Shown in pieces: positions 20,403 to 55,307 of a DNA stretch of 64,000 bases. The stretch is from Vicugna vicugna (lineage: Eukaryota). The stretch covers positions 589,502-653,501 of the forward strand of contig MU057700.1 of NCBI GenBank assembly GCA_013265495.1. The letters run 5' to 3'. Each line of letters starts with the position of its first letter. Positions within the stretch are counted from its first letter, which is position 1. Both the position numbers and the translations under genes were made by a program. The notes beneath the pieces are model-generated. The model saw nothing but the letters and a program-made list of their open reading frames with translations, had not been told where the DNA came from and made no database searches.

Positions 20403-23400
20403 AGGGTATTGCCAAGATGGCAGAGTAGCAGGATGCATATAGCTCATCCTCTCCCACAAATACACCAAAAATTACACCTACAGATGAAACAATTCACACA
20501 GAATATCTACTGAACTTTGGCATAATATCCCTTACTTCAGAAATGCTAGAAAACCACAATGGATAGGAGAAAAAGAAAAAGGGAAAGGAAATCAGTGCAA
20601 GACCTGTCCTGTGTGGAAGGAGTGGTAAAGGAGGAAAAGCACCCTCACTCTGGGATGTTCCCTCTCCAGTGGGGAGGTTAGTGGGAACAGAAAGGGAGCA
20701 TCTGAGGCTTTGAGGAGAAAACAGCAGCTCCTTGGCAGACAGAACTGACAGAAACCAATGCAGAGGGTCCTTGGGATCCCTAGCCCAAAATGTAAGCAGG
20801 CAGGGGTGGGCCAGAACTGGCTGCTGGATCTCAGGCTTCTGTGGATGAGCCCTGGGAAAGGAGTGGAGCTGACTGCAAAGAGGCAACCTCAGGGGGCTGG
20901 GGTGTGGTGGCTGGGAGTGTGTGCAGAATAGAACAGCCTAGGACCCCAATAAAAATCACCACTACTGGTATGTGGAGGGAGGGGTGCAATGCAGACAAGC
21001 CATAGTGCCTATCTAGGCTAGCCCAGAGGGCATTTCTTGGCACCATTGTTGGTGCATGTTCTCCTGAGAAGAGAGGTAAGATTCAGACACACCCATCTTC
21101 TTGGCTTGCTCCAGAGGAACACAATCCCTGGTGTGCCAAAACCAGGCAGAGGCAGGGCTGACATCTGAATCCATGCGCAGTGTCCCACAACTTAACAGGT
21201 GGGACAGAGATTTGATTCTAACCCCAGTCAGCAATGGTGTTTTTACTCTGGTGGTGACATTGTGGACCCTTGCCTCCAAGATGAACCAGTGGAGTTCTGG
21301 CCCATGTCAGGGACAGGTTTGGCATTAACAGCAGGCATGCATACCATAAGCAGATGTGGGGCTGGGGTCAGCACTGACCCTGTGGTGCACCTTGGATCCA
21401 AGTGTGTGACTGTGTGTTCACTGACATGTCCTAGTACCTGACATCAGCAGATCTGGACTGGTGGCTCTGTGGGTGCAGAACCTGGGGGACACCAGAGCAG
21501 GTTGACAACATTACTGCAGCTAAGGTGAAGACAAGGGTAGCATCAACAAAGTGTACTTTGTATGCCCACATAACAAGTGACAAACAACATTACAGAAGGA
21601 ACTTCCCAGTGGACATCTCCTGTGGAGGAATACTCAGTGGCTCCTCTTCCAATAGAAGCACTCCAAACCCATGTACCATGCACCACAACTCAGAAATGGG
21701 TCTAGAAGCCTATATTCTGACAATAGGGGAGCAGACTCAGTCCCTGTCAAGGCTGTGACAACCACAAAACAAAAAGGAGGCCCAGCTCAGCAACTAGGGC
21801 AGGCTCTGATCACAACACCAACCACACCCACAATCAAAGGGATAACAGCCAACACACATAGGAGAAAGATGTGGCAATCACCCATACTAAAAACAGCCTT
21901 TGTGACAAAATTATTAGTCTATACAGGAATGCTCCCACTTTAAAAAAAATAGAAAAAAAAGAAACCCAGCCCTTCAAGACAGTAGATAACTGATACTTAT
22001 AAATCCAGAATCAGAGAAATATAAGTAAAATGAAGAAGCAGTGGAACCACTCTCAATTAAAAGAACAAGAGAAGTCCCCTTAAAGAATGAACAATGAGCT
22101 AGATCTCAACAGTCTATTAGCTCATGACTTCAAAAAGGGGGTGATAAAATCACTGAAGGAAATAAGAGAGACTATGAATAGAAATGCAGAGTACTATAAG
22201 AAGGAAAAAGAAATGACAGAGAGGAGCCAATTAAAATCAGAAAGCTCAATTACTGAGATAAAAGCCAAGCTAAAGGCAGTCAAAAGCAGACTAGATAATG
22301 CAGAAGAATGAACAAGTAATTTAGAAGACAAGATAACAGAAGTTACCCAATCAGAACAGCAGACAGAAAAGCAAATGAAAACCAGTGAGAGCAATTTAAG
22401 AAACATATGGGATAATATAAAGCACGCCAATCTATATATAATAAGGGTCTCAGAAGGAGAAGAAAGAGAGAAGGGGATTGAAAAGGTATTGGAAGAAATC
22501 ATGACTGAAAACTTCCCAAACATATAGACGAAAACAGATACCCAATTACCAGGAGCATAATGTTCCCAAGCAAGAAGAACCCAGACAGACCTACATCAAG
22601 ACATATTATAATTAAGCCGGCCAAAGTTTTAAGATAAAGAAAAGATTCTAAAGGCAGCAAGAGAAAAGCAAAGAGATAGTTACAAGGGAAACCCCATAAG
22701 GCTTTCAGCTGATTTCTCTACACAAACACTGCTTGCCAGAAGGGAGTGGCAAGATATATTCAAAGTCCTGAATGAGAAAAAGCTGCAACCAAGGATACTC
22801 TATCCAGCAAGACTACCCTTTAGAATAGGAGAGATAAAGAACTTCACAGACAAACAAAAACTAAAAGAATTCAGCAATACTAAACCTACCCTAAAAGAAA
22901 TATTGAAAACCTACTGTAAATAGAAAAGCTATGGAAAAGAGAAAACCATAATTGGAAATGTGATAACTACAATGAATTGCAAGAGAATAAAAATGAAGAT
23001 GTAAAAAAGGACATCAAAATCATTAAAGGTGGGAGAAGGGAGCAAGAAAATACAGAATTTTTTTCTTTGGTTCTTTTTAGGATGTCTTTGAGCTTATATA
23101 AATACCAGTTTAAAGCAAATAGATATAGTGGTGGGTCAATATACTTAAAAAACAGGATAACCACAAATCAAAAGCATACAATAGAGTCACAAAAAGAAAT
23201 CAAACTAATACAAAAGAAAATTATCAAATCACAAAAGAAAAAAAAAGAAAAGAAAGGAGCAAAGAAGAAATATCAAATCAACTGGAAAATTAAGTTCAAA
23301 ATGACAATAAACACGTATCTGTTGACAATTACTATAAATGTCAATGGACTAAATGCTCCAATCAAAAGACATAAAATGGCAGATTGGATAATAAGACAAA

Positions 23401-26400
23401 AACCTACAATATGCTGCCTACAAGAGATCTAGCTTAGGGTGAAGGACACAAACAAATTGAAAGTGAGAGGATGGAAAAATTTATTTCATGCAAATGAAAA
23501 TGGCAGGAAAGTGGGAGTATTAATATTCATATCAGACAAAACAGACTTTAAAACAAAGGCCATAAAGAAGGAAAGAATACTATATAATGATCAAAGGAGC
23601 AATACAAGAAGAGAATATTACAATGGTTAACATATATGCACTTGATATAGGAGCATCTAAATATAAAAAACATATTAACAAACATAAAGGGAGAAATTGA
23701 TGGGGACAAATAATTGTAGGAGACTTTAACAGCCACTAACATCATTGGACAGATCTTCTGGAGAGAAAATCATTAAGGCAACAGAGATACTAAATAGCAC
23801 AACAGAATAGTAGGACTTGGTTGATATTTTTAGGACATTACATCAACAAAAAACAGAATATCCATTCTTTTCAAGAGAACATGGAATGTTCTCTAGGAGA
23901 GACATCTTCCTCAGACACAAAAGAAGCCTCAACAAATTTAAGAGGATAGGAATTATTTCAAGTCTATTTTCTGGCCACAGTGGCATGAAACTAGAAATCA
24001 ACCACAGAAAAACAAATGAGAGAAAAAGACTACATGGAGATTAAACAACATGGTGCTAAAAAACCAATGGGTCAACTATGAAATCAAGGAAGAAATTTAA
24101 AAATACATTCAGACAAATGACAATGGAAACACAATGACACAAAATCTATATGGTAGAACAAAAGCAGTCCTAAGAGGGAAGTTCATAGTGATGCAGACCT
24201 TCCTCAAACAACAAGAACAATCTCAAGTAAACAACTTAACCTACCACTAAAAGAATTAGGAAAGAAGAGCAACAAAACCTAAAGTCAGTAGAAGGAAAGA
24301 AATAACTAAGATCTGAGAAGAAATAAATGAAATAGAGGTTAAAACCATAGAAAAAATCAATTAAACCAAGAGCTGGTTTTTTGAAAGTGTAAGCAAAATT
24401 GACAAACCTCTGGCCAGGCTCACCAAGAAGAAAAGAGTGGACACAAATAAACAAAATAAGAAAGAAAAATGGCTAAATTACAACTAACACCTAGGAATAC
24501 AAAAACCATAATAGAATAGTATGAAAAGCTATATGGAAACAAATTGGACAACCTAGAAGAAATGGAAAAGTTTCTAGAAATGTACAGTCCACCAAAACTG
24601 AATCAAGAAGAAATATATGATTTGAACAGACCAATCAAGAGAAGTGAAATAGAATCAGCAATATAAATCTTCCCTGCAAACAGAAGTCTAAGACCAGGTG
24701 CCTTCACTGGGGAATTCTACCAAACATACAAAGAACTCATACCAATAATTCTCAAATTCTTCCAAAAGATTGAAGAGGAGGGAATATTCCCAAACTCATT
24801 CTATGAAGCCACCATCACCCTGACACCAAAACCAGGCAAAGATACTACCAAAAAAGAAAACTATAGGCCAAATTGTTATGAACATAGATGCAAAAATCCT
24901 CAACAAAATATTAGCAAACAGAATCCAACAACACACAAAAATGATCATACACTATGATCAAGTTGCATTCATCCCAGGGACACACAGATGGTTCAACATA
25001 TGCAAATCAATCAGTGTGATACACCACATCCACAAAAGAAAGGACAAAAACTGCATGATTAACTCGATGCAGACAAAGTATTTGATAAAATTCAACACCA
25101 GTTTATGATAAAAACTCTTACCAAAGTGGTAATAAAGGTAACATATCTCAACATAATAAAAGTTATTTATGACAAAAACCACAGCCAACATAATACTCAA
25201 TGGTGAAAAGTTGAAAGTCTTCCCACTAAAATCTGGTACAAGACAAGGATATCCATTCTCACCAATTTTACTCATAGTATTGGAAGTCATAGCCATAGCA
25301 ATCAGAAAAGAAAAAGAAATAAAAGAATCCATATTGGAAAAGAAGAAGTAAAAGTGTCACTATATGAGGATGATGCAATACTATATACAGAAAATGCTGA
25401 AGACTTATACAAAAACTCCTAGAACTTATACAAAAAGTTTGGCAAGGTAGAAGGATACAAGTTTAACATACAGAAATCAGATCCATTTCTTTATACTAAC
25501 AATGAAATATCAGAAAAAGTAAAGAAACAATCCCTTTTAAAATCACATCCAAAACAATAAAATACTTAGGAATAAATCTGATCAAGAAGGTGAAAAATTT
25601 ATATATGGAGAAATATAAAACATTGATTAAGGAAACTAAAGTTGACTTAAAGAAGTGGAAAGATATCCCATGCTTTTGGATTGGAAGAATTAATATTGTT
25701 AAAATGGCCATACCACTTGAAGCAATCTAGATTTAATGTGATTCCTATCAAATTGCCCAGGACATTTGTTCACAGAACTAGAAGAAATAATCCTAAAATT
25801 TCTATGGAATCACAAAAGACCTAGAACTACCAAAGCATTACTGAAGAAAAAGAATGAAGATGGAGGAATAACCCTCCCAGACTTCAGACAACACTGCAGA
25901 GCTACAGTAATCAAAACAGTATGGTGTTGGCACAAAAACAGACATATAGATCCATGAAACAGAATAGAGAGCCCAGAAATAAACACACAGACCTATGGTC
26001 AATTAACCTTTGACAAAGGAGGCAAGAATACACAATAGAGAAAAGACACTGTCTTCAGCAAGTGGTGCTGGAAAAACTGGACAAATACATATAAATAAAT
26101 GAAGTTAGGACACTCCTTCATACCATACACAAAATAAACTTAAAATGGTGTAAAGACTTAAACATAAGACAAGACAACTATAAACGTACTAGAAGAAAAC
26201 ATTGGCAAACATTTTAGCAATTTAGAAACCTTAGCAATGTTCTTATGGGGCAATCTAACCAGGCAATAGAAATAAAAGCAAAAATAAACAAATGGGACCT
26301 AATTAAACTTAGAAGCTTTTGCACAGCAAAAGAAATCATAAGTAAAACAAAAAGACAACCTATGGAATGGGAGGAAATGTTTGTGAATGGGCAACTGACA

Positions 26401-27385
26401 AAAGCTTAATTTCCAGAATACATAAATGACTCATGCAGCTTATAATAATAAAAAAATCCCAAAATGGTCAGAAGACCTAAATAAGCAATTCTCCAGTGAA
26501 GACACACAAATGGCCAATAAGCATGTGAAAAAATGTTCAATATCACTAATTATCAGAGAAATGTAAATCAAAAATATAATGAGGTATCACCATACACCAG
26601 TTAGAATGGCCATCATTCAAAAGTTCACAAAGACATTCTGGAGAGGGTGTGGAGAAAAGAGAACTCTCCTACACTGTTGGTGGGAATGTAGTTTGGTGAA
26701 GCCATTATGGAAAACAGTATGGAGATTAAAAAAAAAACTTAAAAATCTACTTATGATAAGATACAGCAATACCAATTCTGGGCATATATCCAGAGGGAAC
26801 CTTAATTCAAAAAGATACATACACCCCAGTGTTCATAGCAGCACCATTACAATAGCCAAGACATGGAAACAACCTAAATGTCCAACAACAGATGACTGGA
26901 AAAGAAGCTGTGGTATATTTATACAGTGGAATACTATAAAGGAATAAAGCCATTTGCAGCAGCATAGATGGACCTGGAGATCATCATTCTAAGTGACGTA
27001 AGCCAGAAAGAGAAAGAAAAATACCATACGATATCACTCATGTTTGGAATCTAAGAAAAGAAAAAAGAAGACAATAATGAACTTATGTACAAAACAGAAA
27101 CAGACTCACAGACATACTAAACAAACTTATAGTTGCCAGGGGAAAGCAGGTAGGAGGGGATAAATTGGGAGCTTGAGATTTGCAAATGTTAACTACTATA
27201 TGTAAAATAGATAAACAACTAGTTTCTTCTGTATATCACAGAGAACTATATTCCATATCTTGTGGTAACCTACAATGAAAAAGCACATGAAAATGAATAT
27301 ATGTATTATATACATGATGGAAACTGCTGTGCACCAGAAATTGACATGCTGTAAACTAAGTATCATTCTATTAAAATTAAAAAGA
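20403..27385 (+). mobile_element. Full-length, inactivated LINE-1 (about 7 kb)
   Basis: 5'UTR from ccaagatggcagag; ORF1 about 22030-22920; ORF2 from ATG 23301 (ITINVNGLNAPIKRH endonuclease; [21 protein letters not shown]) to about 27050; 3'UTR and A-rich tail; many stops/frameshifts, RT motif reads YEDD. Confidence 0.97.
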
Positions 27386-27457
27386 AAAGAGAGAGAGGGG
27401 CAGAGGAAATGGTAATATCTTCCCAAGAGCATTTACACAGGAATAAGAATCACATTG

Positions 27458-28778
27458 TGATACTCTATAGAGAAAACCCAAAGGCTTCACACAAAAACAT
27501 AGGCAAAACATTATCTGACATAAATCTTAGCAATGTTCTCCTAGAACACTCTACCCAGGCAATAGTAATAAAAACAAAAATAAACAAATGGGACCTAATT
27601 AAACTTAGAAACTTTTGCACAGCAAAGGAAACCACAAGCAAAACAAAATGACAGCCTATGGAATGGGAGAAAATATTTGCATAGATGAGACTGACAAGGG
27701 CTTAATTTCCAGAATACATAAACAGCTTATGCAACTTAATAAGAAAAAAACAAACAACTCAATCCAAAAATGGGCAAAAGACCTAAACAAGTAGTTCTCC
27801 AATGAACACATACAAATAGCCAATAGGCACATGAAAAAAATGCTCAACATCATTAATTATCAGAGAAATGCAAATCAAAACTACAGTGAGGTATCACCTC
27901 ATTCCAGTCAGAAATGGCCACCATTAAAAAGTCCACAAATGATAAATGCTGGACAGGGTGTGGAGGAAAGGGGACCATCCTACACCGTTGGTGGGAATGT
28001 AGTTTGGTGAAGCCATTATGGAAAACAGTATGGAGATTCATCAAAAAACTAAAAATAGATCTACCATATGATCCAGCAATCCCACTCCTGGTCCTATATC
28101 CAGAGTGAACCTTAATTCAAAAAATACATACACCCAGTGTTCATACCAGCACCATTTACTATAGCCAAGACATAGAAACAACCTAAATGTCCATCAACAG
28201 ATGACTGGATAAAGAAGCTGTGGTATATTTATACAATGGAATACTACCCAGCCATAAAAAGAATAAAATAATGCCATTTGCAGCAACATGGATGGATCTG
28301 GAGAATGTCATTCTAAGAGAAGTGAGCCAGAAAAAGGAACAAAAATACTATATGATATCACTTATATGTGGAATCTAAAAAAAAAAAGAAAGAAAGATGA
28401 ACTTATTTACAAAACAGAAACAGATTCCCAGACATAGAAAACAAATTTATGGTTACCAGGACAGGAAGGGTGTGGGAAGGGATAAATTGGGACTTCAAGA
28501 TTTGCAGGTTCTAACTAACACAGAAAAAAATTAATGAACAACAAGCTTATATTGTATAGCACAGGGAACTATACTCAATATCTTGTAGTAACTTTGGTGA
28601 AAAAGAATATGAAAACATATATATATATGTTCCTATATGACTGAAACATTATGCTGTACACCAGAAATTGACACAACATTGTAAACTGACTATACTTCAA
28701 TAAAAATACATACATACATACATACATACATACATAAGTAAAATTTTAAAAGAAACAATATAAAAATATATTTTAAAA
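27458..28778 (+). mobile_element. 5'-truncated LINE-1 with internal deletion and perfect TSD
   Basis: 13-bp TSD aagaatcacattg at 27445-27457 and 28779-28791; tail contains (TACA)n. Confidence 0.95.
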
Positions 28779-29800: not shown

Positions 29801-29977
29801 TATTATTTTATGTAAAGTAAGAAAGAAAAGAATCCCTACCAATTAAACCATGTCACGCTTATTATTTTGAGTTTTAATTTTATATGTATTAAAATAACTT
29901 TTAGACCTATTTAGATGTAGAATTATATCATACATCATCCTTGTTAATACATAAAAGAGAAGATTAAAACTTTTTCA

Positions 29978-32386
29978 ATTTCCAGTCAAGATGGAGGAGT
30001 GGTAGGACCACAATCTCACCTCTCCTCATGACTGCAACAAACCACAACTGAATGCTAAACAACCATTGGAAAAAGACTGGAAGCTAGCAAAAAAGATCTT
30101 CTGTAACTGAAAACATAAAGAGGGAACTACAGCATGATGGTAGGAAGGGTGTACTCGTGATATAATTGGACCCCATGCCCCCTAGGTGAGCGATCCACAA
30201 GCTGAAGAATAGTTAAGTTGCAGAGGCCCTCCCACAAGAGAGCTGTAAGCCCCATGTCAGACTCCCCAGCTTGGATCCCAGCACTGGGAAGAGGAGACCC
30301 CAGGACATCTGGTTTTGAAGGCCAGGGGTCTTGGCTCTGGGAGCCTCACATGACTGGGGGAAACAGAGACTCCATTTGCTTGAGAAACGTACACAGAAAC
30401 TCATGTGTACCAGTTCCAAGGGCAGAGGCAGTGATTTCATAGGAACCTAGTCCAGACCTGCCTTCTGGATTTGGAGGGTCTCCTGGGACAAGGGGGATGG
30501 CTGTGGCTCACTCAGGGGATATAAAAGCTGATGGTGGACATTCTGGGGATGTTCATCTACATGAGCTTTCCTGGAGGCTGACATCTTGATGGGATCACTA
30601 GCACCAAGACCTAGCCCCACCCAACAGCCTGTAGGGAAGCCTCAGGCCAAACAACATGTAGGGTGGGAACCTAGCCCCACCCATCAGCAGACTTCTTAAG
30701 CCACCAAGGCCTCTAGATGCAAACTTACCCACCACAGATCCAGGCCAAGTTTCACTCAGCAGTGGACAGGCATTGGCTCCTCCTGTCAGGAAACTTGCAA
30801 AGCCTCTAGTCCAGCCTCATCCACCAGGGGCAGATACTAGAAATAAGAAAACAACAGCCCCAAAGCCTGTGGAAGGAATTCACAAACAGAAAGATAGACA
30901 ATCTGAGGCAGCAAAGGAATATCTCCCAGGCCAAGGCATGAGATAAAATCCCAGAAGTAAGTGATGAGGAGATAGGTAACCTATCTAAGAAAGAGTTTAA
31001 AGTAATGATGGTGAAGATGTTCAGAGAACTCAAGAGGAGTATTGGTGCACAGAGTGAAATTTTCAGCAAAGAGTTGGAAAATATAAAGACTACCCAAACA
31101 GAGTTGAAGAATAAAATCGCTGAAATGAACAATATACTAGAACGAACCAAGAATACACTAAATGAGACAAAAAAATGGATCAGTGAACTAGAAGATGGAT
31201 TAGCTGAAATCACTACTTCAGAACAGAAAAAAAGAAAGAAAAAGAAAAAAGAATTAAAAGGAATGAGGATAGTTTAAGAGAACTCTGGGACAACATTAAG
31301 CACACTAATATTCGCATTATAGAGGTCCCAGAAAGAGAAGAGAGAGAGAAAGTACCTGAGGAAATTTTTGGAGAGATAATCACTGAAAACTTCCCCAACT
31401 TGGGAAAAGAAACAGTCACCCAAGTCCTGGAAGCGCAGAGAGTACCACACAGAATCAGCCCAAAGAGGAACACACCAAGGCACATAGTCATCAAATTGAG
31501 AACAATTAAGGATAAGAAGAAAATATTAAAATTAGCAAGAGAAAAGCAACAAGTAACATACAAGGGAATTCCCATAAGGTTATCAGCTGATTTTTCAGCA
31601 GAAACTCTACAGGCCAGAAGGCAGTGGCAAGATATATTTAAAGTGATGCAAGGGGGAAACTTACAACCAAGAATACTCTACCCAGCAAGGCTCTCGTTCA
31701 GACTTGATGGAGAAATTAAAAACTTCACAGTTTAACAAAAGCTAAAAGATTTCAGCACCACCAAACCAGCTTTACAACAAATGTTAAAGGACCTTCTCTA
31801 GTCATCAAACCATAAGAAAAGAGAACAAAAAGAAGAAAGAAAACAAAAAGAAAAAAGAGAAAAAAGAGAGAGACCTACAAAAGATTTCTTTGGTTGTTTG
31901 GTGTCTTTGGTGGTTTCTTATAAATTTTGGGATTGTTTTTTCTAGTTCTGTGAAGAATATCACTAGTATTTTGATGGGGGTTGTGTTGAACCTGTGGGTT
32001 GCTTTGGGTAGTGTGGCCATTTTGATGATGTTGATTCTTCCAGTCCAAAAGCACAAGAAATCTTTCCATTTCTTTGTGTCATTTCAGGTTTCAGAGTATG
32101 GGTAACCTCCTTGGTTAAGTTTGTTTCTCGGTATTTTGTTGTTTTTGATGTAATGGAAATATCTCTGCCAGTTACAAAATTCTGGTTTTTGAATGAAAAA
32201 AAAAAAGAATGAAGGGCTGCAAATGGCAAAATATCCTTCTTTTTTATGGGTGAGTTGTATTCATATATATATGTATACATATATGTATCTTTTCAACTAC
32301 TGATGTGCACTTAGGATGCTTCCATATCTTGGCAGTTATAAATAACTTTGCTGTTATAGCAGAGTGTATGTATCTTTTTGAGTTAA
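29978..32386 (+). mobile_element. Composite ORF1-only (HAL1-like) L1 derivative, copy 1, 3'-incomplete
   Basis: 5'UTR, disrupted ORF1 (about 30903-31801; GIPIRLSADFSAETLQARRQW), then antisense ORF2 piece 31883-32160, linker, antisense L1 piece 32216-32386; same junctions as copy 2. Confidence 0.85.
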
Positions 32387-32489
32387 TTCTTAATTTGTGG
32401 TTGGCTTTATTCTTTTGATAATTATGTAAGTTTAAAAAGCTAAATCTCTAAATGTTCTTAGAAACAATGAACAATAGATACATGTAAAT

Positions 32490-32832
32490 CAAAAGATATA
32501 TGTGCAGTAAAAAGAATGATCTATCAAGCCATGAAAGACATGCAAGAAACTTAAAAGACATGTTACTAAGTGAAAGAAGCAGTTTGAAAAGGCTACAAAC
32601 TGTACAATTCCAACCAATTGACATTCTGGAAAAGGCACAGCTACAGAAACAATAAAAAGATAGTGGTTCCATGGGTTTGGGGAGAGAGATGGGGGGAGGA
32701 ATGAATAATTGGAGAGCAAGGGATTCTTAAGGGAATGAAATTATTCTGTATGATACTATAGAGGCTACATGTCATTATGCATTTGTCAAAACCCACAGAA
32801 TGTACGACATCAAGGGTAAACCCTAATGTAAA
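32490..32832 (+). mobile_element. L1MC-type 3' fragment
   Basis: aagccatgaaagacatg...aaaggctacaaactgtac...gtcattatgcatttgtcaaaacccacag...aaccctaatgtaaa. Confidence 0.8.
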
Positions 32833-33904
32833 GAATAAAAAAAAAAAAAGGAACTAATTCCTGAGTCAACTAATGCTAAAAGGTTTGGAAGAAAAATAGA
32901 AACCATCAGCGGAGTCGCAGAAGGAAAGGCCAGTGAATTCATAAAAAACCAGAAATCAACAACGAAAACAATTATAGAAATGGTGTAATGTAATTAACTG
33001 GAATCTATATCATGGAAGCATTACAAAGAGAGAGACTGACTGTGTCAAATGAAGCCAATAAACAAAAGTGTGAATTGAGAAATCTTTTTTCCTGTGATAG
33101 AATTGTTCTGAAATGGGATTGTGAGGGAGACTCAACTCTGCACATTTACACACACAAAAACCAAAGAAGTCTGTATTTAAATGAGTCAATTTGTGGCATG
33201 TAAATTATACCTCAAGAAATCTCTTTCAAAATGAAGGAGTATTTAGCACATATCTACCCAATAGAGCTGCTCCCAGGTATTCGTCTCACAGGGTAAATGA
33301 AAACAGATATTTAGAAAAAAGATGCATCCATAAATATACAAAAATATTTATTCATAATAATCCACATTTGAACTAACCCAAATGTCCATTATTAAGAGAA
33401 TGGATTAATATTTTGTGATGTAATCTTACTAGGTCAAATTACTCAGCCCCACAAACAGAATGAATGGCATACTCAAATAAAAACATGTATCTCTAAAAAC
33501 ATTACTTAGAGACAGACATCAAAGTATACATTGTGATTTTTTTCATTTTTATCAAGTTCAACCCCCATCAAACTGATGGATGCATGTCATGAGAGTGTGT
33601 GTATTTCAATTGAAATGTGACAGAGGGTATATATTCTGTGTTAATGAATGTGATTCAAACATATGGTTCATACATTGAATTTTCTGATACTGTCAAGGGT
33701 TAGAAATTTGAAAGATTTGTGAAATCATAAACTTTACATTGACACATTTCACTATATTTTTATTGTATACAGATATAAACACAAAAAGAAAGAGATAAGA
33801 AAAAATTACCATTAGACAATAATGGAGAAAATGACATTTTAGTTACAACCCTCCCCTCTGACAACACCCCATCCTCCCTGTGACACTGACCAGATAACTG
33901 ACCA

Positions 33905-35110
33905 ATTCCGGATGTCAGTTGCTGGTTGGGTTCCAGGTGGAATGTTGGGGTGTCCCCCGGGGGCTTGTTGTGGCTGGTGGATCCATGGTAACTGCACAGA
34001 GCCCTGGGTGGATCAGTGCCATGGAGGGGCTACTGTCCTCTGTGGAGCTTGGCTTTGAGCTGATCCTCAGGAAGTTGAGTCCGGTCCTGGTTTTGCTGCT
34101 GCCCAATGGCCTGTGTTCTCAGTTCATGTTCCAGAGCCTCCACTGGGAGACAGTGTTGAGTCTGCCTTTCCTCACCTTGTTGGTTGGTGTCTTATTTCCT
34201 TTCAGACTTATTCAGTTTTTTAGAAGTCAACTTAATGGAAGACATGAAAAGCAACTGGCAAAAACACTGACTGCACAGATTGAGGAGAAATGCCACCTCA
34301 TCAACCAGCTTTGTGTGGCTAAATAGGAGTATGCCAGGATGGAGACAACTTTAAAGAATGCCAGGCTAGAGGAGCCAGTAAGTATACCCAACCTCGCTGA
34401 CACTTACAGAAAGTTGATGACGGTCAACCTGACTTCGAGGAATGAAATCAATTTTCTCATCCAAGAACTGAAGAGAGAGAGAGATCCCTGTAGTCTATAC
34501 AGGAAGAGATGGTGGAGACGCTAAAAGTGCTCATGTTCCTGGAAGAGGTCATGAGAATCAGCACATCACAAAGGGCTTTTACAAACCAGCCAGGGGATGG
34601 AGCACCAAGTCCTGATGGTCCCTTCCCCAGGAGTGGACCCTCATCTGAAAGCTGTGCTGTTCCCTCCCCTCCACTCAGGCCTCCCAAGCTGCCAGGCTGC
34701 ATTCACTCACTCAGTCAGATCTCCACCTGAGCTGCACCGAGGCCAGTTGATGGAGGGCAATCCCCTCCTTTGGACCAGAGTTCCTCCAACTTTACCAGTG
34801 AGGACAGCAGTGAACTCCCTCATGGTCAGCATCTCTCACCTAAAATACATTGGAATTCCCAGAACACGCCACGAAGCATGGGACTTTTTAAATATTCAGC
34901 AAATGTTTGGATTATCTATTACTAGTTGTGAAAGAAATGTTGTAATTGAACTGATCTTCTGCTTAGTTTGAATCTATATTAAGCCTCATTTATCAAGACA
35001 GTTTGGGTAACTTTTATATATCAGCAATGTAAGTAAAGTGTATATATAGTTATTCTGTGTACAAATATTGCATTATAATTTGAAAATGTATGCAATTTGT
35101 CAATATAAAC
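33905..35110 (+). pseudogene. Intronless cTAGE/MIA2(cTAGE5)-family pseudogene, short form
   Basis: ATG 34021: MEGLLSSVELGFELILRKL...LHWETVL...TM...RSQLNGRHEKQLAKTLTAQIEEKCHLINQL parallels cTAGE5 N-terminus (FPWELVI...RSRLYVGREKKLA..LSGLIEEK); in-frame TAG 34324-34326; frameshift in (GA)n near 34480; Pro-rich end to TGA 34730; cTAGE-like 5'UTR. Confidence 0.88.
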
Positions 35111-36799
35111 TTTTACATGGCCATAGCACTTATTTCTAGAGTTTAATTTTGAAGTCATAAGTTTAAGTCAAAGAACTTTTTTTTCCTGAGTATGCATAGT
35201 TTTTTTAAAAAGAGATGAACTTTTTAAAGATGAAGTTAAATTGTAGTCTTAAAAGAAACTTTTATCATTTAATTTTTATATTCTGCTATAACAATATCCA
35301 TAATAAAAGTAAATTTGATAAATTAAAAAAAAACTTTTTCACATCAGAGTATAACTCCTCTGAATTGCTTTTCCACTCAGTTACTCAAGCTTTTAAGTAC
35401 ACTAAAATGTTCTCCTGGATAATAATAGAATTTGTGATGAAGCATTGTTTAAGAGTGCTCCACTTTTCTCTTTGGCACTGTTTTCTTTTTCCTTCCAGGA
35501 CACTGACATCAATCTGCAAGTTGATCCTAGTGCTTTTATGATCTTACCAGAACTTGCCAGTGGAAGGTTTTCAGACAACAAACAGAAATCATTTTCTTTC
35601 TTCAAATAGATCTTAAATGGTTCGTTGATGGAATCATCAAGGGTCACACTCTGGTCATGCCTCATGAAATAATAACCAACTCAATTCACTTTTTAGTGAG
35701 TTTGTTCTTTATCTGGTCAGATGTATCAAAACAAATCTACTTGATTAGTTAGGTAGGTTCCTAGACACCTATTCCAGATTCTTTCAGTTAGTCTGCTCTC
35801 ACTTTACCTAATGTCCCACTTTTTTTTTTTTTTTTTTTTTGAACAGATTTGGGGAAATATCTCATTCTTAGTTATTGCTCTGTGGTTTAAAATTAAATAT
35901 AGTGGCAACTTTCAATTTTGGTAGTTATTCATAACACCATAGTGATGCACTACTTTTTATAACCTGTACTCATAATAAAGCAACTTTTGCAATGTCTCCT
36001 AAAAGCATGAGGGTTTTATTAGCATTTTTTATTTGATTTAATTTACAGTATCATGTTTTTGCTCAACTGAATCATGTATTACTAGAAGTTAAATAGCTTC
36101 AGATCAAGGCAGCAGGAAGTTCTGACAAAGTGATTTTTGACATCTTTGACTATAGTCCTGCATGACATATCAATAGGCCACACCAGCCTCATGTTGTTTT
36201 TAATTTTCTACATCCATCCCAAGGGATTTGATAAACTAACCTACCTCTGACCGGAGTACTTGGTGTGATAGGCAATATTTTTGCATGAGTCTTAGTAAAA
36301 AAAAAAGAAACATATCTCCATCTATTTGTGGGTATCTTCAGTTCTTGAGTTCCATAAAGCATTTGATTATTGCTTTGCATATTAATTTAAAATTTCCGTT
36401 ATTTTTCCAATGACAAATATTTGTTTTCTTAATATCAAATGCATTACCTCTTGCTCTACTTCCACATCTTTCCGCATATATTATAACTTTTCATTTCATT
36501 GCAAAATTGTAAGTTTTTGAAGACATTTTAAATAGCAGCTAAACTCAATATGTATAGTACCAACAATGCACATAACTCAATTGAAATAATGACAAAAAGA
36601 ATAGCTATCATTATGCACACATAAATGCAGGCAATGACAACTAGGCCACATCTGCTGCCTCCCTGACAGCAAGTGTAAGGAGCAACTCAATTTAGAGATG
36701 TCGAAATGTGGAAAGATGCTCGACTTAGAAACAATGAAATATGGTATCCCACAAAATAGAATTAGGATAAAACATTAGGGAAAATTAAAGATATTGTAA

Positions 36800-37222
36800 A
36801 CTACTTAAAGGAAAAATAAAATACACATACTACACTCATGAAAATATGTGTCACTACCATTAAAGCATCAAAATATATAAAGCCACAATGGACAAAAATT
36901 ACAGATATGAATAGATACACCAATATTTTAGCACCATTTCAGAAACTGATAGATCAAGATGACAAAGAAAATAAACACACATATCAAGATCTGAACACTA
37001 CAATTAACAAATACATAGAGAACTCTAAACCTAACAAGTAGTTGATACACATTGAATTAGAGTATATGTAGAACATGTACAAAAACTGACCATGCTTTAG
37101 GATGTAAAGAAAGCTGTAATGAGCACATATGGAACATAAACAAAAATTGACCATGCATTAGGATATAAAGAAAGCCCTAATGAATTCCAAGAGATCAATT
37201 TCACACAGAACAAGATTCCTAA
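36800..37222 (+). mobile_element. Old L1M ORF2 endonuclease-region fragment
   Basis: IKASKYIKPQ...QDLNTTINK...IENSKP resembles L1 EN; continues the host L1 left at about 29800. Confidence 0.7.
37060..37181. repeat. Diverged 61-bp tandem duplication
   Basis: 37060-37120 vs 37121-37181 (gaacatgtacaaaaactgaccatgctttaggatgtaaagaaagc vs gaacataaacaaaaattgaccatgcattaggatataaagaaagc). Confidence 0.85.
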
Positions 37223-38572
37223 CAGCTACCTGTAAAGAATAAAATTAGAACAGTCTCTAACGCAATATACAAAAATAAACTCAAAATTGATTAAAGATCT
37301 AAATGTAAGACGGGATACTATAAAACTCCTAGAGGAAAACATAGGCAGAACATTCTAACAAAAATTGCAGCAATATTTTTTTGAACCAGCTTCTAGAGTA
37401 ATGGAAATAAAAGCAAAAATAAACAAATGGAGCCTAATTAAACTTAAAAGCTTTTGCACAGCTAAGGAAATCATCAACAAAATGAAAAGACAACCTACAG
37501 ACTGAGAGAAAATATTTGCAAATGATGCATCTGACAAGGGACTAATTTCCAAAATATATAAACAGCTCATACAACTTAATTTATTAAAAAAAAAGAGCAA
37601 CCCAATCAAAGAATGGGCAGAAGACTTAAATAGACATTTCTCCAAAGAAGACATCTGGATGGCCAACAGGCACATAAAAAGATGCTCAGCATTGCTAATT
37701 ATTAGAGAAATGCAAATCAAACTACAATGAAGTATCACCTGACACCAATCAAAATGGCCATCATTTAAAAATCTACAAATAATAAATGCTGGAGAGGCTG
37801 TGGAGAAAAAGGAAGCCTCCTACACTGTTGGTGGGAAAATAAATTGATGCAGCCACTATGGAGGACAGTATGGAAGTTCCTTTAAAAATTAAAAATAGAC
37901 ATAAAATATGATCCAGCAATCCCACTCCTGGGCATATACCCAGAGAAAACTATAATTTGAAGAGCTATATGAACACCAGTGTTGACAGGACTATTTTTTT
38001 TTTCTGGAGGTTTATTTATTTATTTTAGAGGAGGTACTGAGGATTGAACCTAGGACTTTGTGCACGCTAATAATATGCTCTTTGACTTGAGCTATACCAT
38101 CCTCCCTTACAGCAGTACTATTTAAAAAAGCTAAGACATGGAAATAACTTAAATGTCCATCAATGGATGAATGGATAAAGAAGTGTGGTATATTTATACA
38201 ATGGAATACTACTCAGACATAAAAAAGAATAAAATAATGTCATGTACAGCAATATGGATGAACCTGGAGACAGCCATTCTAAGTGAAGTAAGCTAGAAAA
38301 AGAACAAAATATATCCTATGATATTGCTTATATGTGGAATCTAAAAAAACACAAACGAACTTATTTATAAAACAGAAACAGACTCACAGACATAGAGAAC
38401 AAACTTTTGGTTACCAGGGGATAATAGGGGTAGGAAGGAAGCAATTGGGAGTTAAAGATTTGCAGATACTAACTACTATCTATAAAGTAAACAACAAGTT
38501 CATATTGTATAGTACAGGAACTATATACAACATCTTGCAGTATTCTATAATGAAAAAGAAAATGAAAATGAA

Positions 38573-38613
<41 letters not shown>

Positions 38614-38707
38614 CTGAAACATTATGCTGTACATCAGAAGTTGACACAACATTGTAAACTGACTAGATTTCAATAAAAATAACACAAATTTGATAAAAGA
38701 AAAAAAT
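37223..38707 (+). mobile_element. 5'-truncated LINE-1 containing a SINE and (TA)n
   Basis: ORF2 C-terminal region and 3'UTR ending tttcaataaaaat; (TA)n at about 38580-38611. Confidence 0.93.
37994..38106 (-). mobile_element. tRNA-derived SINE (camelid type)
   Basis: Reverse strand has ggtatagctcaag A-box, ggttcaatcc B-box and aaataaataaa tail. Confidence 0.85.
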
Positions 38708-38810
38708 AATATCTATTTCATTAGGTTGTTTTGAGGATTAAATGAGAGACCATATGTAAAGCACCTAGTACATTTTCTAATCCACAATATGTGATTAATA
38801 AATGTTCGAT
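38708..38810. mobile_element. MIR fragment
   Basis: ggttgttttgaggattaaatgag...atgtaaagcacctag core. Confidence 0.8.
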
Positions 38811-39289
38811 TCCAGTCAATTCAATAAACATGTACCTAGGAAAAAAAAAGAACATATTTTCTAAGCCTAATACAATGTAACTAAAAAAGCATAAGAGACT
38901 TCTTTTAATCCCACAATTTTTGGAAATGAAAACAGCTTTTGGGTAAAAAAGAAATTGAGGAATAGTTAAACTAAAAGATAAAAACACAATTTGTCAAAAA
39001 AGTAGTTTTCACAAGGAAAATTATAGCTTTAAATGTATTTTTGAGAAAGTAAAATTAAGAACAAACTAAGCATTCAGATTTGAAAGGTGGAAAAAGAGTA
39101 ACAAAGTAAAGTCAAAGAAAGAAACAAGGCAGAAGGAAATTATAACCATCAGGGCAATGTTCAAGCAAATAAAACAATGGATAAGATTAACAAAATCAAA
39201 ACTGAAGTCTTTGTAAACATTAAGATAGACACACATCTCACAATACTCCTTAAGGATAAAAGACCAAAAAGTATAAAAGCAAATATGAC

Positions 39290-42200
39290 GATTTCTGGTC
39301 AAGATGGCAGAGTGGTAGGACCACGAAATTGCCTCTCCACATGACTACAACAAAACCACAACTGAATGCTAAACAGCCATCAAAAACAAAAGACTGGAGC
39401 CTAGCAAAAAAGATCTTCTGCAACTGAAAATATTAAAGAGGGAACCACAGTGGGATGGTAGGAGGGGTGTGCTCATGATATAATTAGGCCCATACCCTCC
39501 AGGTGGGCAACCCACAAACTGAAGAATAAGTCACAGAGGCCCTTCCACAGGAGTGAGAATTCTGAGCCCCACATCAGGCTCTTTAGCCTGCGGTTCCAGC
39601 ACTGGGAGGAGAAGACCTGAGGACATCTGGTTTTGAAGGCCAGTGGGGCTTAACTCCAGGAGCCCCATGGGAGTAGGGGAAACAGAGACTTCATTCTCTT
39701 GGGAAGTGTACACAGAATCTTGCAAGTGCCAGGTCCAAGGTTAGAGGGGATGATTTCATAAGAACCTGGGCCAGACCTGCCTGCTGGATTTGGAGAGTCT
39801 CCTGGGGAGGTAGAGGATGGCTGTGGCTCACCCAGGGGACATAAAAGCTGGTAGCAGTCATTCCAGGAGTTTTCATCTACATGAGCTTTCCTGGAGGTTG
39901 ACATCTTGATTGGATCATTAGCACCATGACCTAGTCCAACCAACAACCTATAGGCTTAAAGGCTGGGCAGCCTCAGGCCAAACAACATACTGGGTGGGAG
40001 CACAGCCCCACCTATCAGCAGACCTCCTGAGCAACAAATGCCTCTAGACATGACCATACCCACCAGAGGTCCAGGACCAAGTTTTACCCATCAGTGGTCA
40101 GGTACCTACTCGTCCTGCTAGGAAACTTGCATAAGCCTCTAGTCCAGCCTCATCCACCAAGGGGCAGATGCCAGAAATAAGAAAACTACAATCTCAAAGC
40201 CTATGGAAGGAATTTACAAACACAGGCCAGACCCTACAGTGGGACTGGCTGGATCCTGGCCCTTGGGTGACAAGAGAAGAGTGTGCTGTTGGGATGCATA
40301 GGATGTCTCCCATAGAGGGCCACTTCTCCAAGGTTGAGAAATCTAACTAACCTACCTAAAAATACAAATGGAAAGATAGACAATATAAGTAGGCAAAGGA
40401 ATATCTTCCAGGCCAAGGCACAAGATAAAATCCCAGAAGAAGAAATAAGTGATGAGGAGATAAGCAATATATCTGAATAGGAGTTTAAAGTAATGATGGC
40501 AAAGCTGTTCAGAGAACTTAAGAGTATAGATGCACAGAGTGAAATTTTTAGCAAAGAGGTGAAAAATATAGTCTACCCATATAGAGTTAGGAATAAAATC
40601 ACTGAAATGAACAACACACTAGATGGAACCAAAATAGACTATATGAGGCAGAAGAACGGATCAATGAGTTAGAAGACAGATTAGTTGAAATCACTAATGC
40701 AGAACAGAAAAAGGGGGAAAAGTGAAAAGAAATGAAGATAGTTAAAGAGAACTCTGGGACAACATGAAGCGCTCTAATACTCGCATTATACAGGGGTCCC
40801 AGAAAGAGAAGAGAGAAAGAAAGGACCTGAGGAAATTTGGGGGGAGATAATCACTGAAAACTTCCCCAACTTGCAAAAGGAAACAGTCACCCAAGTCCAG
40901 GAAGTGCAAAGAGTTCCACACAGGATAACCCAAAGAGGAACACACAGAGGCACATAGTAATCAAACTGACAAAAATTAACAGTAAGGAGAAAAGATTAAA
41001 ATCAGGAAGAGAAAAGCAATAAATAACATGCAAGGGGAACTTCCATAAGGTTATCAGCTGATTTTTCAGCAGAAACTCTACAGGCCAGAAGGGAGTGGCA
41101 TGATATAGTTTAAATAATGAAAGGGAAAAACTTACAACCAAGAATACTCTATCCAACAAGGCTTTCATTCAAATTTGATAGAGAAATCAAAAGCTTCACA
41201 GATAAACAAAAGCTAAAAGAATTCAGCACTACCAAACCAGCTTTACAAAAAATATTAAAGGAACTTCTTTAGTCACCAAACCACAAGAAAAGAGAACAAA
41301 AGGAAGAAAGAGGGGGGAAAAGACCTACAAAATACTGCTTTGGCAATTCGGGGTCTTTTATGGTTCCATATAAATTTTGGAATTGTTTGTTCCAGTTCTA
41401 TGAAGAATGTTGTGAGTATTTTGACAGGGGTTGCATTGGATTGTGGATTGCTTTAGGTAGTATGGTCATCTTGATGTTGATTCTTCCAACCCAAGAGCAC
41501 AAGATGTCTTTCCATTTCTTTGTATCATCTTCAATTTCCTTCATCAATTTTTTACAGTTTTCAGAGTATAGGTAACCTCCTTGGTTATGTTTATTTCTAA
41601 GTATTTTGTTGTTTTTGGTGCAATGGAAATGTTTATGCCAGTTATAAAATTCTGGTTTTTGAAATGAAAAAAAAAGTGAATAAAGGGCCACAGATGGCAA
41701 AATATTCTTCTTTTTTATGTATGAGTTGTATTCCATTGCATATATATGCTACATCTTTTTTATCCATTCATCTATTGATGTGCACCTGGGATACTTCCAT
41801 ATCTTGGCAATTGTAAATAATACTGCTGGTAATAGCAGGGTGTATGTATCTTTTTGAATTAATGTTTTTGTTTTTCTCAGATAAATGCCCAGGAGAGGAA
41901 TTGCTAGGCCATATGGTGGTTCTATCTTTAGGTTTTGGGGAAGCCTCTATATTGTTTTCCATGGTGGCTGCACCAATTTGCATTCCCACCAACAGTGCAC
42001 AAGAGTTCCCTTTCCTCCACATTCTTGCCAACATTGGCTATTTGTGTTCTTTATGATGATGGCCATTCTGATAGGTGTGAGATGGTGTCTCATTGTGATT
42101 CTGATTTGCGTTTCTCTGATACTGGTGATGTTGAGCAACTTTTCATATTCCTGTTGGCCACCTGCACTTCCTCTTTTGGAAAAATGTTCAGTTCTCCTGC

Positions 42201-42684
42201 CCATTTTTAAGTGGGTTGTTTGTTTGTTTGCTTGCTTTTTAATTGGAGTACAGTTGATTTAAAATGTTGTATTAGTTTCTGGTGTGCAGCATGGATGGAT
42301 TTGGAGGCCATTATCCTAAGTGAAATAAGTCAGACAGAGAAAGAAAAATACTGTAAAATATCACTTACATGTGGAATCTAAAAAAAAAAAAGCAACAAAC
42401 TAGTGAATATAACAGAAAAGAAACAGACTCACAGATGCAGAGAAGGAACTAGTGGTTACGAGTGCAGAGAGGGAACGGGGAGGGGCAAGATGGAGGAGGA
42501 GGATTAAGAGGTACAAACTATCAGGTATAAAATAAGCTACAAGGATGTACTGTACAACATGGGGAATATAGCCAATACTTACAGTAACTATAAATGGAGC
42601 ATAACCTTTAAAAATTGTGTATCATTATATTGTATACCTGTAGCATATGAAATTGTACATCAGCTATACTTCTACTTAAAAAAC
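39290..42684 (+). mobile_element. Composite ORF1-only (HAL1-like) L1 derivative, copy 2
   Basis: 5'UTR, disrupted ORF1 (about 40383-41272), antisense ORF2 piece 41333-41630, linker 41631-41685, antisense L1 41686-42215, short antisense L1 tail to about 42285, sense L1 3' end to 42684. Confidence 0.85.
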
Positions 42685-42709
42685 ATAGCATTGTAAAATA
42701 AATGCATTT

Positions 42710-43790
42710 TTAAAGAAGATTGGCAATACAGTGTTGATGATGTTGATCAATGGGAACTCTGACCCACTGCTGGTGGAACAGTTTGGCATTTCCTAGAAGA
42801 GGTAAACTGTGCATACCCAGCAACTCAGCACTTCATCTCTTGTAAACATATATACAAACCTAAATATATATTTCCTGCAAATATACATATTCACACACAC
42901 ACCCTAGAGAAATTCTTGCCCATGTGTCCTGTAGGATTTCTGGGAGCTCTGTTAGCAATAGGAAAAAAGTGAAAACAACCCATCTGCACATTAGCACAGC
43001 ATAAACAAATAAGTTATAGTATATATACATGATGGAATAAAATTTCACAACAGTGAAAGTGAATGAATTATAGATAACTACATGCATTAACACAGATACA
43101 TTCCAAAAACTTCATGGAGAGTGAGCATCACAAAAGAATACGTGTAATAAAACTGTAATAATACAAAGTTCATCATATATACTAAGAAAGAAGAGTGAGG
43201 ACATTTACCACCAAAGTCAGAAGAGTGGCTGTCTCTAGCAGGGGAGCAAAAAAGGAAGATGGAGGGTATATTCCAAGCTACTGGTAATATCCTGTCCTTT
43301 TTTTTCAAATAAAAATCTATTTTATTTTCTTGATGCTAAATATTTAACAAATATACTTGTTATAAACCCTCATAAATTCCCTTAAAATCACATATAGTGC
43401 AGGTCTACAGGCATATCTTGTTTAATTGCACTTCACAGATTGCATTTTTTACACCTGCATCTAGAAAGTCTATCGGTGCCATTTTCCCAACAGAATTTGC
43501 TCACAGTATTTCAAATCTTTTCATTATTACCATATTTGTTATTGTCATCTGTGATCTTTAATGTTAGTACTAGGACTTGTTGAGGGCTTAGATGATTAAG
43601 GTATGTATGTTGTTTTTTTAGACATAATGCTATAGCACACTAATAGACTATAGACTATTGTAAATATAACTTTCAGGAAATATCCTGTTCTTAAACTGGG
43701 TGCAAGTATACAGATGTTCACTGTACTATTGTTATGGAAACTGTTTATTGCATTATGTAAGTTTTGTCTATCTGTATACTCACATTTTGT
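42710..43790 (+). mobile_element. Old L1M 3' end interrupted by a retrocopy
   Basis: gggaactctgacccactgctggtgg...ctggtaatatcctgt | tcttaaactgggtg...gatgttcact. Confidence 0.7.
43300..43678 (-). mobile_element. Processed retrocopy of a transcript 3' end containing a Tigger1-type fragment
   Basis: 14-bp TSD aatatcctgt(c/t)ctt at 43286-43299 and 43679-43692; T-run 43298-43305; minus-strand AATAAA at 43321-43326; Tigger1-like terminus ta|caggcatatcttgttt from 43408. Confidence 0.75.
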
Positions 43791-50443: not shown

Positions 50444-50564
50444 TGGGGGAAGTTACAGCTCAGTGGTAGAGTGTGTGCTTAGCATGCACAAGGGCCTGGG
50501 TTCAATCTCCAATACTTTCATTAAGAAATAAGTAAGCCTAATAAACCCACCAGCCCCGTCCAAA
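50444..50564 (+). mobile_element. tRNA-derived SINE (camelid type)
   Basis: agctcagtggtagag A-box, gggttcaatc B-box; perfect 13-bp TSD agaagaaatgggt at 50431-50443 and 50565-50577. Confidence 0.93.
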
Positions 50565-54510: not shown

Positions 54511-54646
54511 TTTATTTATTTGTTTGTTTTACTTTTGAAGGGGGGAGGTAATTGGGTTTATTTATTTTAACGGAGGTACTGGGGATTGAACCCAGGACCT
54601 TGTACATGCTAAGCACGCACTCTACCACTGAGCTATAACCTCTCCC
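54511..54646 (-). mobile_element. tRNA-derived SINE (camelid type)
   Basis: Reverse: tatagctcagtggtagagtgcgtgcttagcatgtacaaggtcctgggttcaatcccc; degenerate TSD tctaacaagcaaggtat / tctaccaaacaagatac. Confidence 0.92.
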
Positions 54647-55074: not shown

Positions 55075-55307
55075 TTTTTTTTCTTGAAGTATAGTTGATG
55101 TACAATATTATACAAGTTACAAGTGTACAATATAGTGATTCACAATTTTTAAAGGTTATATTCCATTTACAGTTATTATAAAATAGTGGCTGTATTCTCC
55201 ATGGTGTACAATCTATCCTTAGAGCTTATTTTATACCTAATAGTTTGTACCTCTTCATCCCCGGCTTCTATTACTGTCCCCTTCCCACTGGTAACCACCA
55301 GTTTGTT
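55075..55307 (-). mobile_element. Short antisense L1 3' end
   Basis: ttttcttgaagtatagttgatgtacaatatt...ggtaaccaccagtttgtt. Confidence 0.88.

What the first reader, a model, noticed from the sequence alone, without database searches (positions are those of the whole stretch)
29978..42684. Two diverged copies of a composite ORF1-only L1 derivative carrying antisense L1 cargo
Seen: elements at 29978-32386 and 39290-42684 share 5'UTR and ORF1, then switch at the same point (after gacctacaaaa, about 31882 and 41332) to an antisense ORF2 fragment, share a non-L1 linker (tgccagtta(c/t)aaaattctggtttttgaa...A-run) and switch again to a second antisense L1 piece. They have different flanks and many substitutions and indels (about 140 bp extra in copy 2 at 40225-40365). 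Established: ORF1-only HAL1 elements are non-autonomous L1 derivatives known from several mammals. Inference: this architecture was amplified as a family, and its transcript would encode ORF1p while carrying RNA antisense to the helper L1 ORF2, a possible dsRNA/piRNA source. It may already be catalogued.
Basis: partly seen in the sequence, partly recalled or inferred. Interest (0 to 1): 0.7.

Follow-up and report, generated by a model that had tools for sequence, protein, structure and literature searches.

The report
Two dead half-L1 retrotransposon copies
These are two long-dead copies of a jumping gene that kept only the first gene of LINE-1 and probably borrowed its copying enzyme from full LINE-1s, a known way of life, and the second copy seems to preserve how the family's tail was first built.

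Summary
The copies align end to end at 83-87% in six segments and share both junctions and the linker. A third sequence, P0001, reads through the linker, a shared frameshift and the first junction. It is about 11% diverged from copy 1 and shares a 24-nt deletion with copy 1 only. That points to an amplified HAL1-type family with subfamilies, not one local duplication. Corrections: copy 1 probably runs on to a poly(A) at 32849; copy 2's 3' part looks like one twin-primed, 5'-inverted L1 inserted at the linker's A-run; both ORF1s are broken and diverged neutrally (dN/dS 0.65 against a null of 0.67). The antisense/piRNA role has no support: the cargo is 70-74% like local L1s, which are 79-88% like each other. 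I obtained no genome-wide count, found no target-site duplication and could not check Repbase or Dfam. This scan already noted what looks like the same family 25 kb upstream (e1-7856012, unchecked). Verdict: new member of a known kind.

The parts
29964..29977 (+). Left flank of copy 1 with an L1 endonuclease-type TT/AAAA site; candidate target-site duplication, not confirmed
   Evidence: 7 of 12 letters match the 12 nt after the poly(A); flank alignment score 9 against a null median of 7 and 95th percentile of 11
29978..30902 (+). Copy 1: L1-type 5'UTR from its natural 5' end; lacks 148 nt present in copy 2; CpG-depleted
   Evidence: the CAAGATGG 5' motif also opens the unrelated L1 at about 20405; 3 CpG left
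30903..31801 (+). Copy 1: L1 ORF1, broken (no ATG, premature stops at 30939 and 31733, frameshift in an A-tract near 31240)
   Evidence: Pfam PF02994 E 8e-24, PF17490 E 6e-15, PF17489 E 2.5e-5; stops and frames
31802..31883 (+). Copy 1: inter-ORF spacer, cut at junction 1 after GACCTACAAAA
31884..32160 (-). Copy 1: piece A, antisense ORF2 (around ORF2p 780-824), with the 4-5-nt deletion shared by all three copies and a 24-nt deletion shared with P0001
32161..32215 (+). Copy 1: non-L1 linker with A-run (32196-32206)
32216..32387 (-). Copy 1: first 170 nt of piece B, antisense ORF2 C-terminal end
32388..32849 (+). Copy 1: probable 3' tail, old L1MC-like 3'UTR (label recalled), ending in AATAAA and A13
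   Evidence: sequence, A-run; membership of the element is inferred; the length agrees with unchecked note e1-7856012
39290..40384 (+). Copy 2: L1-type 5'UTR from its natural 5' end, including the 148 nt (40223-40370) missing in copy 1
40385..41272 (+). Copy 2: L1 ORF1, broken (four premature stops and several frameshifts)
41273..41333 (+). Copy 2: inter-ORF spacer, cut at junction 1
41334..41630 (-). Copy 2: piece A, antisense ORF2; keeps the 24 nt (41528-41551) that copy 1 and P0001 lack
41631..41687 (+). Copy 2: non-L1 linker; the A-run (41667-41675) is read here as the target site of the nested L1 insertion
   Evidence: the role is inferred
41688..42229 (-). Copy 2: piece B, antisense ORF2 C-terminal region; inverted part of a twin-primed L1
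   Evidence: ORF2p 1076-1157; maps to 28280-27744 of the in-window L1
42230..42292 (-). Copy 2: piece C, inverted extreme L1 3' end with its A-tail
   Evidence: maps to 28726-28651; junction letters
42290..42683 (+). Copy 2: piece D, sense L1 3' end (last about 30 ORF2 codons, 3'UTR, A6)
   Evidence: starts at 28283 of the in-window L1, 3 nt from where B ends; its end is 82% like 55074-55260

Best explanation
Both are dead copies of a non-autonomous, HAL1-type retrotransposon family. Shown: L1 5'UTR plus ORF1, no usable sense ORF2, shared junctions, at least three diverged copies. Inferred founder: an L1 cut just after its inter-ORF spacer was joined to an inverted ORF2 piece (A) and about 55 nt of other DNA. 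A second L1 then inserted at the A-run of that DNA by twin priming (inverted B, inverted 3' end C, sense D) and supplied a 3' end and poly(A), which is the form copy 2 keeps. A later source element lost 24 nt of A (copy 1, P0001), and copy 1's line swapped everything after 170 nt of B for an older L1MC-like tail. Inferred from known L1 biology: the internal promoter drove the RNA, its own ORF1p coated it, and ORF2p of full L1s copied it in trans. The antisense pieces are most likely passengers left from this assembly.
For: Even divergence over six segments. Homology begins at an L1 5' terminus and the flanks are unrelated. P0001 carries the B end, linker, shared frameshift, A, junction 1 and spacer. 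It matches copy 1 at 98 of 127 residues; simulated 5% DNA divergence never fell that low (0 of 3000) while 10-13% fits, so it is not an allele or close orthologue of copy 1. It is about 80% like copy 2 (90 of 113, my count). The 24 nt missing in copy 1 and P0001 are present in copy 2 and in the in-window L1 outgroup, which is a nested, subfamily-type mark. B ends at 28280 and D starts at 28283 on the in-window L1, and the same adjacency shows on another copy (7930/7942); C and D share TGCAGCA. Fourteen DNA-type runs under three organism labels hold 0.44-0.52 of the words of 39000-43000, so copy 2's locus is not an assembly artefact.
Against: No genome-wide count was obtained; the third copy rests on one predicted protein of unknown location (1 candidate; the only true hit of 2; none). 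No target-site duplication was found for either copy. ORF1 shows no purifying selection between the copies, which is expected for dead copies of near-identical sources but gives no positive support. No intact ORF1 relative was found (0 of 224 candidates). With note e1-7856012 there may be three copies within about 70 kb, far denser than its unchecked figure of roughly a thousand copies predicts (about 0.03 expected, my arithmetic for a 2-Gb genome). That the tail 32388-32849 belongs to the element is inferred.
Confidence: 0.82

Rival explanations
1. Old local DNA duplication: the composite was built once in place by nested insertions and rearrangement, then duplicated a few times at the DNA level, and never moved as an RNA.
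For: The copies lie about 6-7 kb apart and a possible third lies 25 kb upstream of the window (unchecked). No target-site duplications. Neutral ORF1 divergence. P0001's location is unknown.
Against: No flank is shared on either side. The left break falls on the L1 5' terminus in both copies. Copy 1 has a TT/AAAA site on the left and a clean A13 on the right. The 24-nt deletion groups copy 1 with P0001 although they are about 11% apart.
Confidence: 0.1
2. Same family, but copy 2's 3' part is secondary: a copy with the L1MC-like tail recombined within piece B with a neighbouring inverted L1 and lost its tail.
For: Copy 2 has no target-site duplication. Copy 2's head to 41863 plus copy 1's tail is 3036 nt, close to the 3059 nt of note e1-7856012, so the tailed form may be the common one.
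Against: It leaves unexplained that D starts within 3 nt of where B ends at the family's own linker junction. Copy 2 also keeps the ancestral state of the 24-nt site.
Confidence: 0.2
3. The antisense ORF2 cargo was functional: it paired with helper L1 mRNA, either tethering the element next to newly made ORF2p or feeding dsRNA/piRNA silencing of L1. This can hold together with the best explanation.
For: A and the start of B are kept in all three copies; both are complementary to the coding part of L1 mRNA.
Against: B is 70-74% like four in-window L1s that are 79-88% like each other; A is 70-74% like the one in-window reference used. A has taken shared deletions and B is cut to 170 nt in copy 1. 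Caveat: the cargo may come from an L1 lineage not present in the window. No small-RNA or expression data were examined.
Confidence: 0.07
4. Two unrelated rearranged L1 insertions that happen to look alike.
For: Inverted L1 pieces are common products of twin priming (PMC2837659, Background read).
Against: Same junction 1, same non-L1 linker and same frameshift in three sequences.
Confidence: 0.01

Closest known systems
HAL1 (half-L1) families of mammals (Smit 1999; Bao & Jurka 2010, PMC2923044, not held and not seen; known here through passages of PMC5753468, PMC3627910, PMC4859970, PMC13756887). Lineage-specific examples named in papers read: HAL1_Ssc (pig), HAL1-1A_ML and HAL1-3_ML (bats), HAL1-1H_Cpo and relatives (guinea pig)
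   Same: L1 5'UTR plus ORF1 only, non-autonomous, arisen independently several times from L1.
   Different: The 3' region is a patchwork of antisense ORF2 pieces with two alternative ends. No camelid HAL1 is named in the papers searched; whether known HAL1s carry antisense ORF2 pieces I could not check.
5'-inverted (twin-primed) L1 insertions, including variants with an inverted poly(A) (PMC2837659, abstract and Background read; PMC2912911, abstract read)
   Same: B inverted and D sense abut in L1 coordinates; short microhomology at the join; an inverted 3' end with its A-tail (C).
   Different: Here the insertion serves as the 3' module of a larger element; its own target-site duplication was not found.
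SVA and LAVA composite retrotransposons (PMC7353768, passages read)
   Same: Non-autonomous, L1-mobilised composites that carry antisense pieces of another retroelement (two partial antisense Alu copies) and L1 fragments.
   Different: They encode no ORF1 and have hexamer and VNTR domains.
Repbase camelid L1-1_Vpa, L1-2_Vpa, L1-3_Vpa (names and coordinates from PMC6726744 supplementary file 4, parts 1-2 of 6)
   Same: Camelid L1 families; L1-2_Vpa and L1-3_Vpa hits reach 86-90% similarity to consensus, a similar age class, so they are possible helpers or parents.
   Different: Their coordinates run to 6207, 5791 and 5168, so they are long elements rather than 3-kb ORF1-only ones.

Membership tests
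HAL1 | L1-derived 5'UTR and ORF1 | tested here: met
   Three L1 ORF1 Pfam domains; 5' motif shared with an unrelated in-window L1
HAL1 | No ORF2 coding capacity | tested here: met
   ORF2 matches are antisense; only the last about 30 codons are in sense, in copy 2's piece D
HAL1 | More than a chance pair: several diverged copies with the same junctions | tested here: met
   Two window copies plus P0001
HAL1 | Dispersed, high-copy family across the genome | tested here: inconclusive
   No genome held; no read-depth count obtained; linker scans of metagenome and viral collections gave only chance hits
HAL1 | Hallmarks of target-primed reverse transcription (poly(A), endonuclease site, target-site duplication) | tested here: inconclusive
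   A13 and TT/AAAA for copy 1, A6 for copy 2; no duplication above chance
HAL1 | ORF1 kept functional in the source lineage | tested here: inconclusive
   Pairwise dN/dS 0.65 (bootstrap 0.42-1.05) against a neutral null of 0.67 over 282 codons; two dead copies cannot show selection on their sources
HAL1 | Identity with a named Repbase or Dfam entry | not testable with these tools
   No repeat library on hand
Twin-primed L1 insertion (pieces B-C-D) | Outer end of the inverted part abuts the start of the sense part in L1 coordinates | tested here: met
   28280 against 28283; 7930 against 7942
Twin-primed L1 insertion (pieces B-C-D) | Microhomology at the inversion junction | tested here: met
   TGCAGCA shared by C and D
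Twin-primed L1 insertion (pieces B-C-D) | Target-site duplication around the insertion | tested here: inconclusive
   By eye, the linker's A-run region is not repeated after D; none is expected if copy 2 is a daughter that ends at D's poly(A)
piRNA or dsRNA source | Germline transcription and small RNAs across the family-specific linker | not tested
   No RNA data were laid on the element

The most novel reading that the evidence does not exclude
A HAL1 family that carried RNA antisense to its helper's ORF2 and used it to base-pair with full L1 mRNA, docking beside newly made ORF2p so as to capture it, or silencing the helper through dsRNA; copy 2 would then be a fossil of how that module was acquired in one twin-priming event.
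Probability: 0.07. Interest if true: 0.75.

Novelty: new member of a known kind. Interest (0 to 1): 0.3.

Why it matters
It adds a probable camelid HAL1 family to the list of independent HAL1 origins and gives a readable record of how such an element is assembled from L1 debris and then changes its 3' end. For annotation, one element would be split by standard masking into five or six L1 fragments of both orientations. Only if the antisense cargo helped capture ORF2p would it bear on an open question, namely how ORF1-only elements overcome L1's preference for its own RNA.

Tried and rejected
No whole genome is held. No read-depth or contig count was obtained, so copy number and the commoner 3' end stay open. 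One search listed five RNA runs with 0.06-0.15 of the words and one doubtful RNA run with 0.23; none was laid, so they are no evidence of expression. Linker scans: 0 matches in metagenome contigs for a 21-mer; 11 and 2 matches for a 22-mer, all 13 chance, with the alignment at the motif no longer than 30 nt and no other match beyond 47 nt. Protein searches: no candidate; one search gave P0001 and P0002, the latter an unrelated repeat protein (30%), dropped; 0 of 224 candidates for an intact ORF1 relative, weak evidence by the tool's own note. Look-ups of earlier findings by sequence, near place and relatives found nothing. Target-site duplication searches were at chance level. Mapping the host flanks on the in-window L1 placed only copy 2's right flank, weakly (E 0.01), so no claim is made on host continuity. 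The RNA fold of 41600-42700 had no shuffle control and is not used. Rejected: the linker A-run as the element's poly(A), since both copies and P0001 continue past it; a selected antisense reading frame, since P0001 was found because its frame is open and copy 1 is shifted at the A-run and has a stop. Bao & Jurka 2010 is not held.
Full report
1. The observation. Self-BLAST of the window joins 29978-32387 to 39291-41863 in two blocks of 79.8% and 81.1%. A global alignment gives 83-87% ungapped identity in each of six segments, K2P 0.15-0.20. Both copies start at the same point, switch after GACCTACAAAA to the opposite strand of L1, cross the same linker and switch again. The linker motif occurs exactly twice in the window and in 0 of 100 shuffles. 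Neither flank aligns between the copies.

2. Anatomy. The 5' end carries the CAAGATGG motif that also opens an unrelated near-full-length L1 at about 20405, so homology starts at a natural L1 5' terminus. ORF1 has the three L1 ORF1 Pfam domains. Piece A is antisense ORF2 around residues 780-824 of human ORF2p and piece B is antisense around 1076-1157. Both copies lack 4-5 nt at one place in A relative to the in-window L1, which shifts the ORF2 frame. After 170 nt of B the copies part. Copy 1 enters an old 3'UTR that I recognise from memory as L1MC-like and ends in AATAAA plus A13 at 32834-32849. Copy 2 continues in B to 42229, then has an inverted L1 3' end (C) and a sense L1 3' end (D) to 42683.

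3. Copy 2's end is one insertion. On the in-window L1 at 27494-28740, B ends at 28280 and D begins at 28283; on the L1 at 7560-8400 the figures are 7930 and 7942. C and D share TGCAGCA. This is the layout that twin priming gives, with an inverted part primed inside the RNA; variants with an inverted poly(A) are described (PMC2837659, abstract and Background). I infer that this L1 went into the A-run of the linker, which is then a target site and not the element's tail. Its own duplication is not seen after D.

4. More than two copies. No genome is held and no read-depth count was obtained. I searched proteins instead with the minus-strand frame that crosses the linker. One candidate came back, P0001 (149 aa, E 9.5e-20); the profile-free HMMER search of 1.84 billion representatives returned it again, plus one unrelated protein. 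P0001 reads B end, linker, the shared frameshift, A, junction 1 and spacer. It matches copy 1 at 98 of 127 residues. Simulated DNA divergence of 2, 3 or 5% never gave so few (0 of 3000 each), 7% rarely (1.2%), while 10-13% fits. It matches copy 2 at about 90 of 113. It lacks the same 24 nt as copy 1, which copy 2 and the L1 outgroup keep. Three roughly equidistant copies with a nested deletion are what successive source elements leave. Its location and species are unknown. Searches for shorter relatives, for an intact ORF1 relative (0 of 224) and for the linker in metagenome and viral contigs found nothing.

5. State and age. Copy 1's ORF1 has no ATG, two premature stops and a frameshift; copy 2's has four premature stops and several frameshifts. 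Over 282 codons dN/dS is 0.65 against a neutral null of 0.67 (P 0.44), and mismatches fall 41, 35, 38 by codon position. Each 5'UTR keeps 3 CpG. Both copies are dead. Half the pairwise distance is 0.075-0.10. That is 15-20 million years at the rate quoted in PMC8605555 (2.5e-8 per five-year generation) and 40-50 million at a recalled slower mammalian rate. Fourteen DNA-type runs under three organism labels hold 0.44-0.52 of the sampled words of 39000-43000, so copy 2's locus is real and shared. No target-site duplication rose above chance; copy 1's best candidate matches 7 of 12 letters.

6. How it most likely worked. Shown: promoter region and ORF1 in sense, no sense ORF2, shared junctions, poly(A)-like ends. 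Inferred from HAL1 biology (PMC3627910, passage; PMC4859970, passage): transcription from the internal promoter, ORF1p in cis, ORF2p in trans. Inferred history: junction 1 and linker first, then the twin-primed L1 as first 3' end (copy 2), then a line with the 24-nt loss and an L1MC-like end (copy 1). A secondary recombination in copy 2 is the main alternative for that last step.

7. The antisense idea. B is 70-74% identical to four in-window L1s that are 79-88% identical among themselves; A is 70-74% identical to the one reference used. The cargo also took deletions and was shortened. This looks like drift, with the caveat that the donor lineage may be missing from the window. Antisense cargo in a non-autonomous composite is known from SVA and LAVA (PMC7353768, passage). 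No RNA data were examined.

8. Results against my reading. The third copy is one unplaced protein. Target-site duplications are missing. If note e1-7856012 (3059 nt, 25 kb before the window, antisense ORF2 scraps and an L1MC tail, roughly a thousand copies) is the same family, three copies lie within about 70 kb where about 0.03 would be expected; a larger family, an L1-dense region or local amplification could each explain it. I could not fetch that locus; copy 2's head plus copy 1's tail adds to 3036 nt, which fits its length.

9. What is known. HAL1s encode only ORF1p and arose several times in mammals (PMC5753468, passage). Nine paper searches (listings seen) showed no camelid HAL1 in titles or abstract starts. 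'HAL1' has 0 occurrences in the main texts of two camel repeat surveys (PMC8605555; PMC6675863) and of PMC12849490. A Repbase annotation of 190 kb of camelid DNA lists L1-1, L1-2 and L1-3_Vpa and short hits to tree-shrew and bat HAL1s (PMC6726744, passages, supplementary file 4 parts 1-2 of 6, 2 of 6 'HAL1' places seen); 190 kb cannot show absence. Other passages read: PMC6501411, PMC3183009, PMC13756887, PMC3342881; abstract only: PMC2912911. Bao & Jurka 2010 was not seen, and it, Repbase, Dfam or unread supplements may already hold this family.

10. Verdict. A real feature; a probable camelid HAL1-type family, new member of a known kind, already met elsewhere in this scan. What this window adds is a second, probably older 3' end and a subfamily mark. 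Interest 0.3.

Noticed in passing
window 759-6113: Near-identical duplication: 900-2503 repeats at 4510-6113 (99.75%) and 759-900 at 3414-3555 (100%); a recent tandem duplication or an assembly artefact.
   Followed up: no
window 33850-34900: Decayed fragment resembling cTAGE5/MIA2; the Atlas look-alikes are TANGO1-like (0.90) and MIA2-like (0.75) clusters, a lead only. Earlier notes e1-7856348 and e1-7801848 describe cTAGE5 fragments spread by L1-derived elements.
   Followed up: partly
window 20405-28740: A near-full-length older L1 (5'UTR, ORF1 69% like the two copies, ORF2, 3' end at about 27377) followed directly by a second L1 3' part, 27494-28740; used as outgroup.
   Followed up: partly
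window 52271-52925: Tandem duplication of about 330 nt at 96%.
   Followed up: no
window 38008-38107, 50445-50544, 54519-54647, 60499-60635: Four copies of a short interspersed element, recalled as the camelid tRNA-derived SINE; the first interrupts the L1 3' end at 37238-38681.
   Followed up: no
window 41398-41748 (-) and P0001: The minus-strand frame through B, linker and A is open for 116 codons in copy 2 and 149 in P0001, because the shared 4-5-nt deletion restores the ORF2 frame; copy 1 is shifted and has a stop. Probably chance plus ascertainment.
   Followed up: partly
window 30888 and 40223-40370: The 148 nt absent from copy 1 are bounded by a short direct repeat (ACAAA) in copy 2 and have no GT..AG ends, which suggests a deletion between repeats and not splicing.
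   Followed up: partly
window 29978-42683 and 25 kb upstream: Possibly three copies of the family within about 70 kb; unexplained if the family has only about a thousand copies.
   Followed up: no
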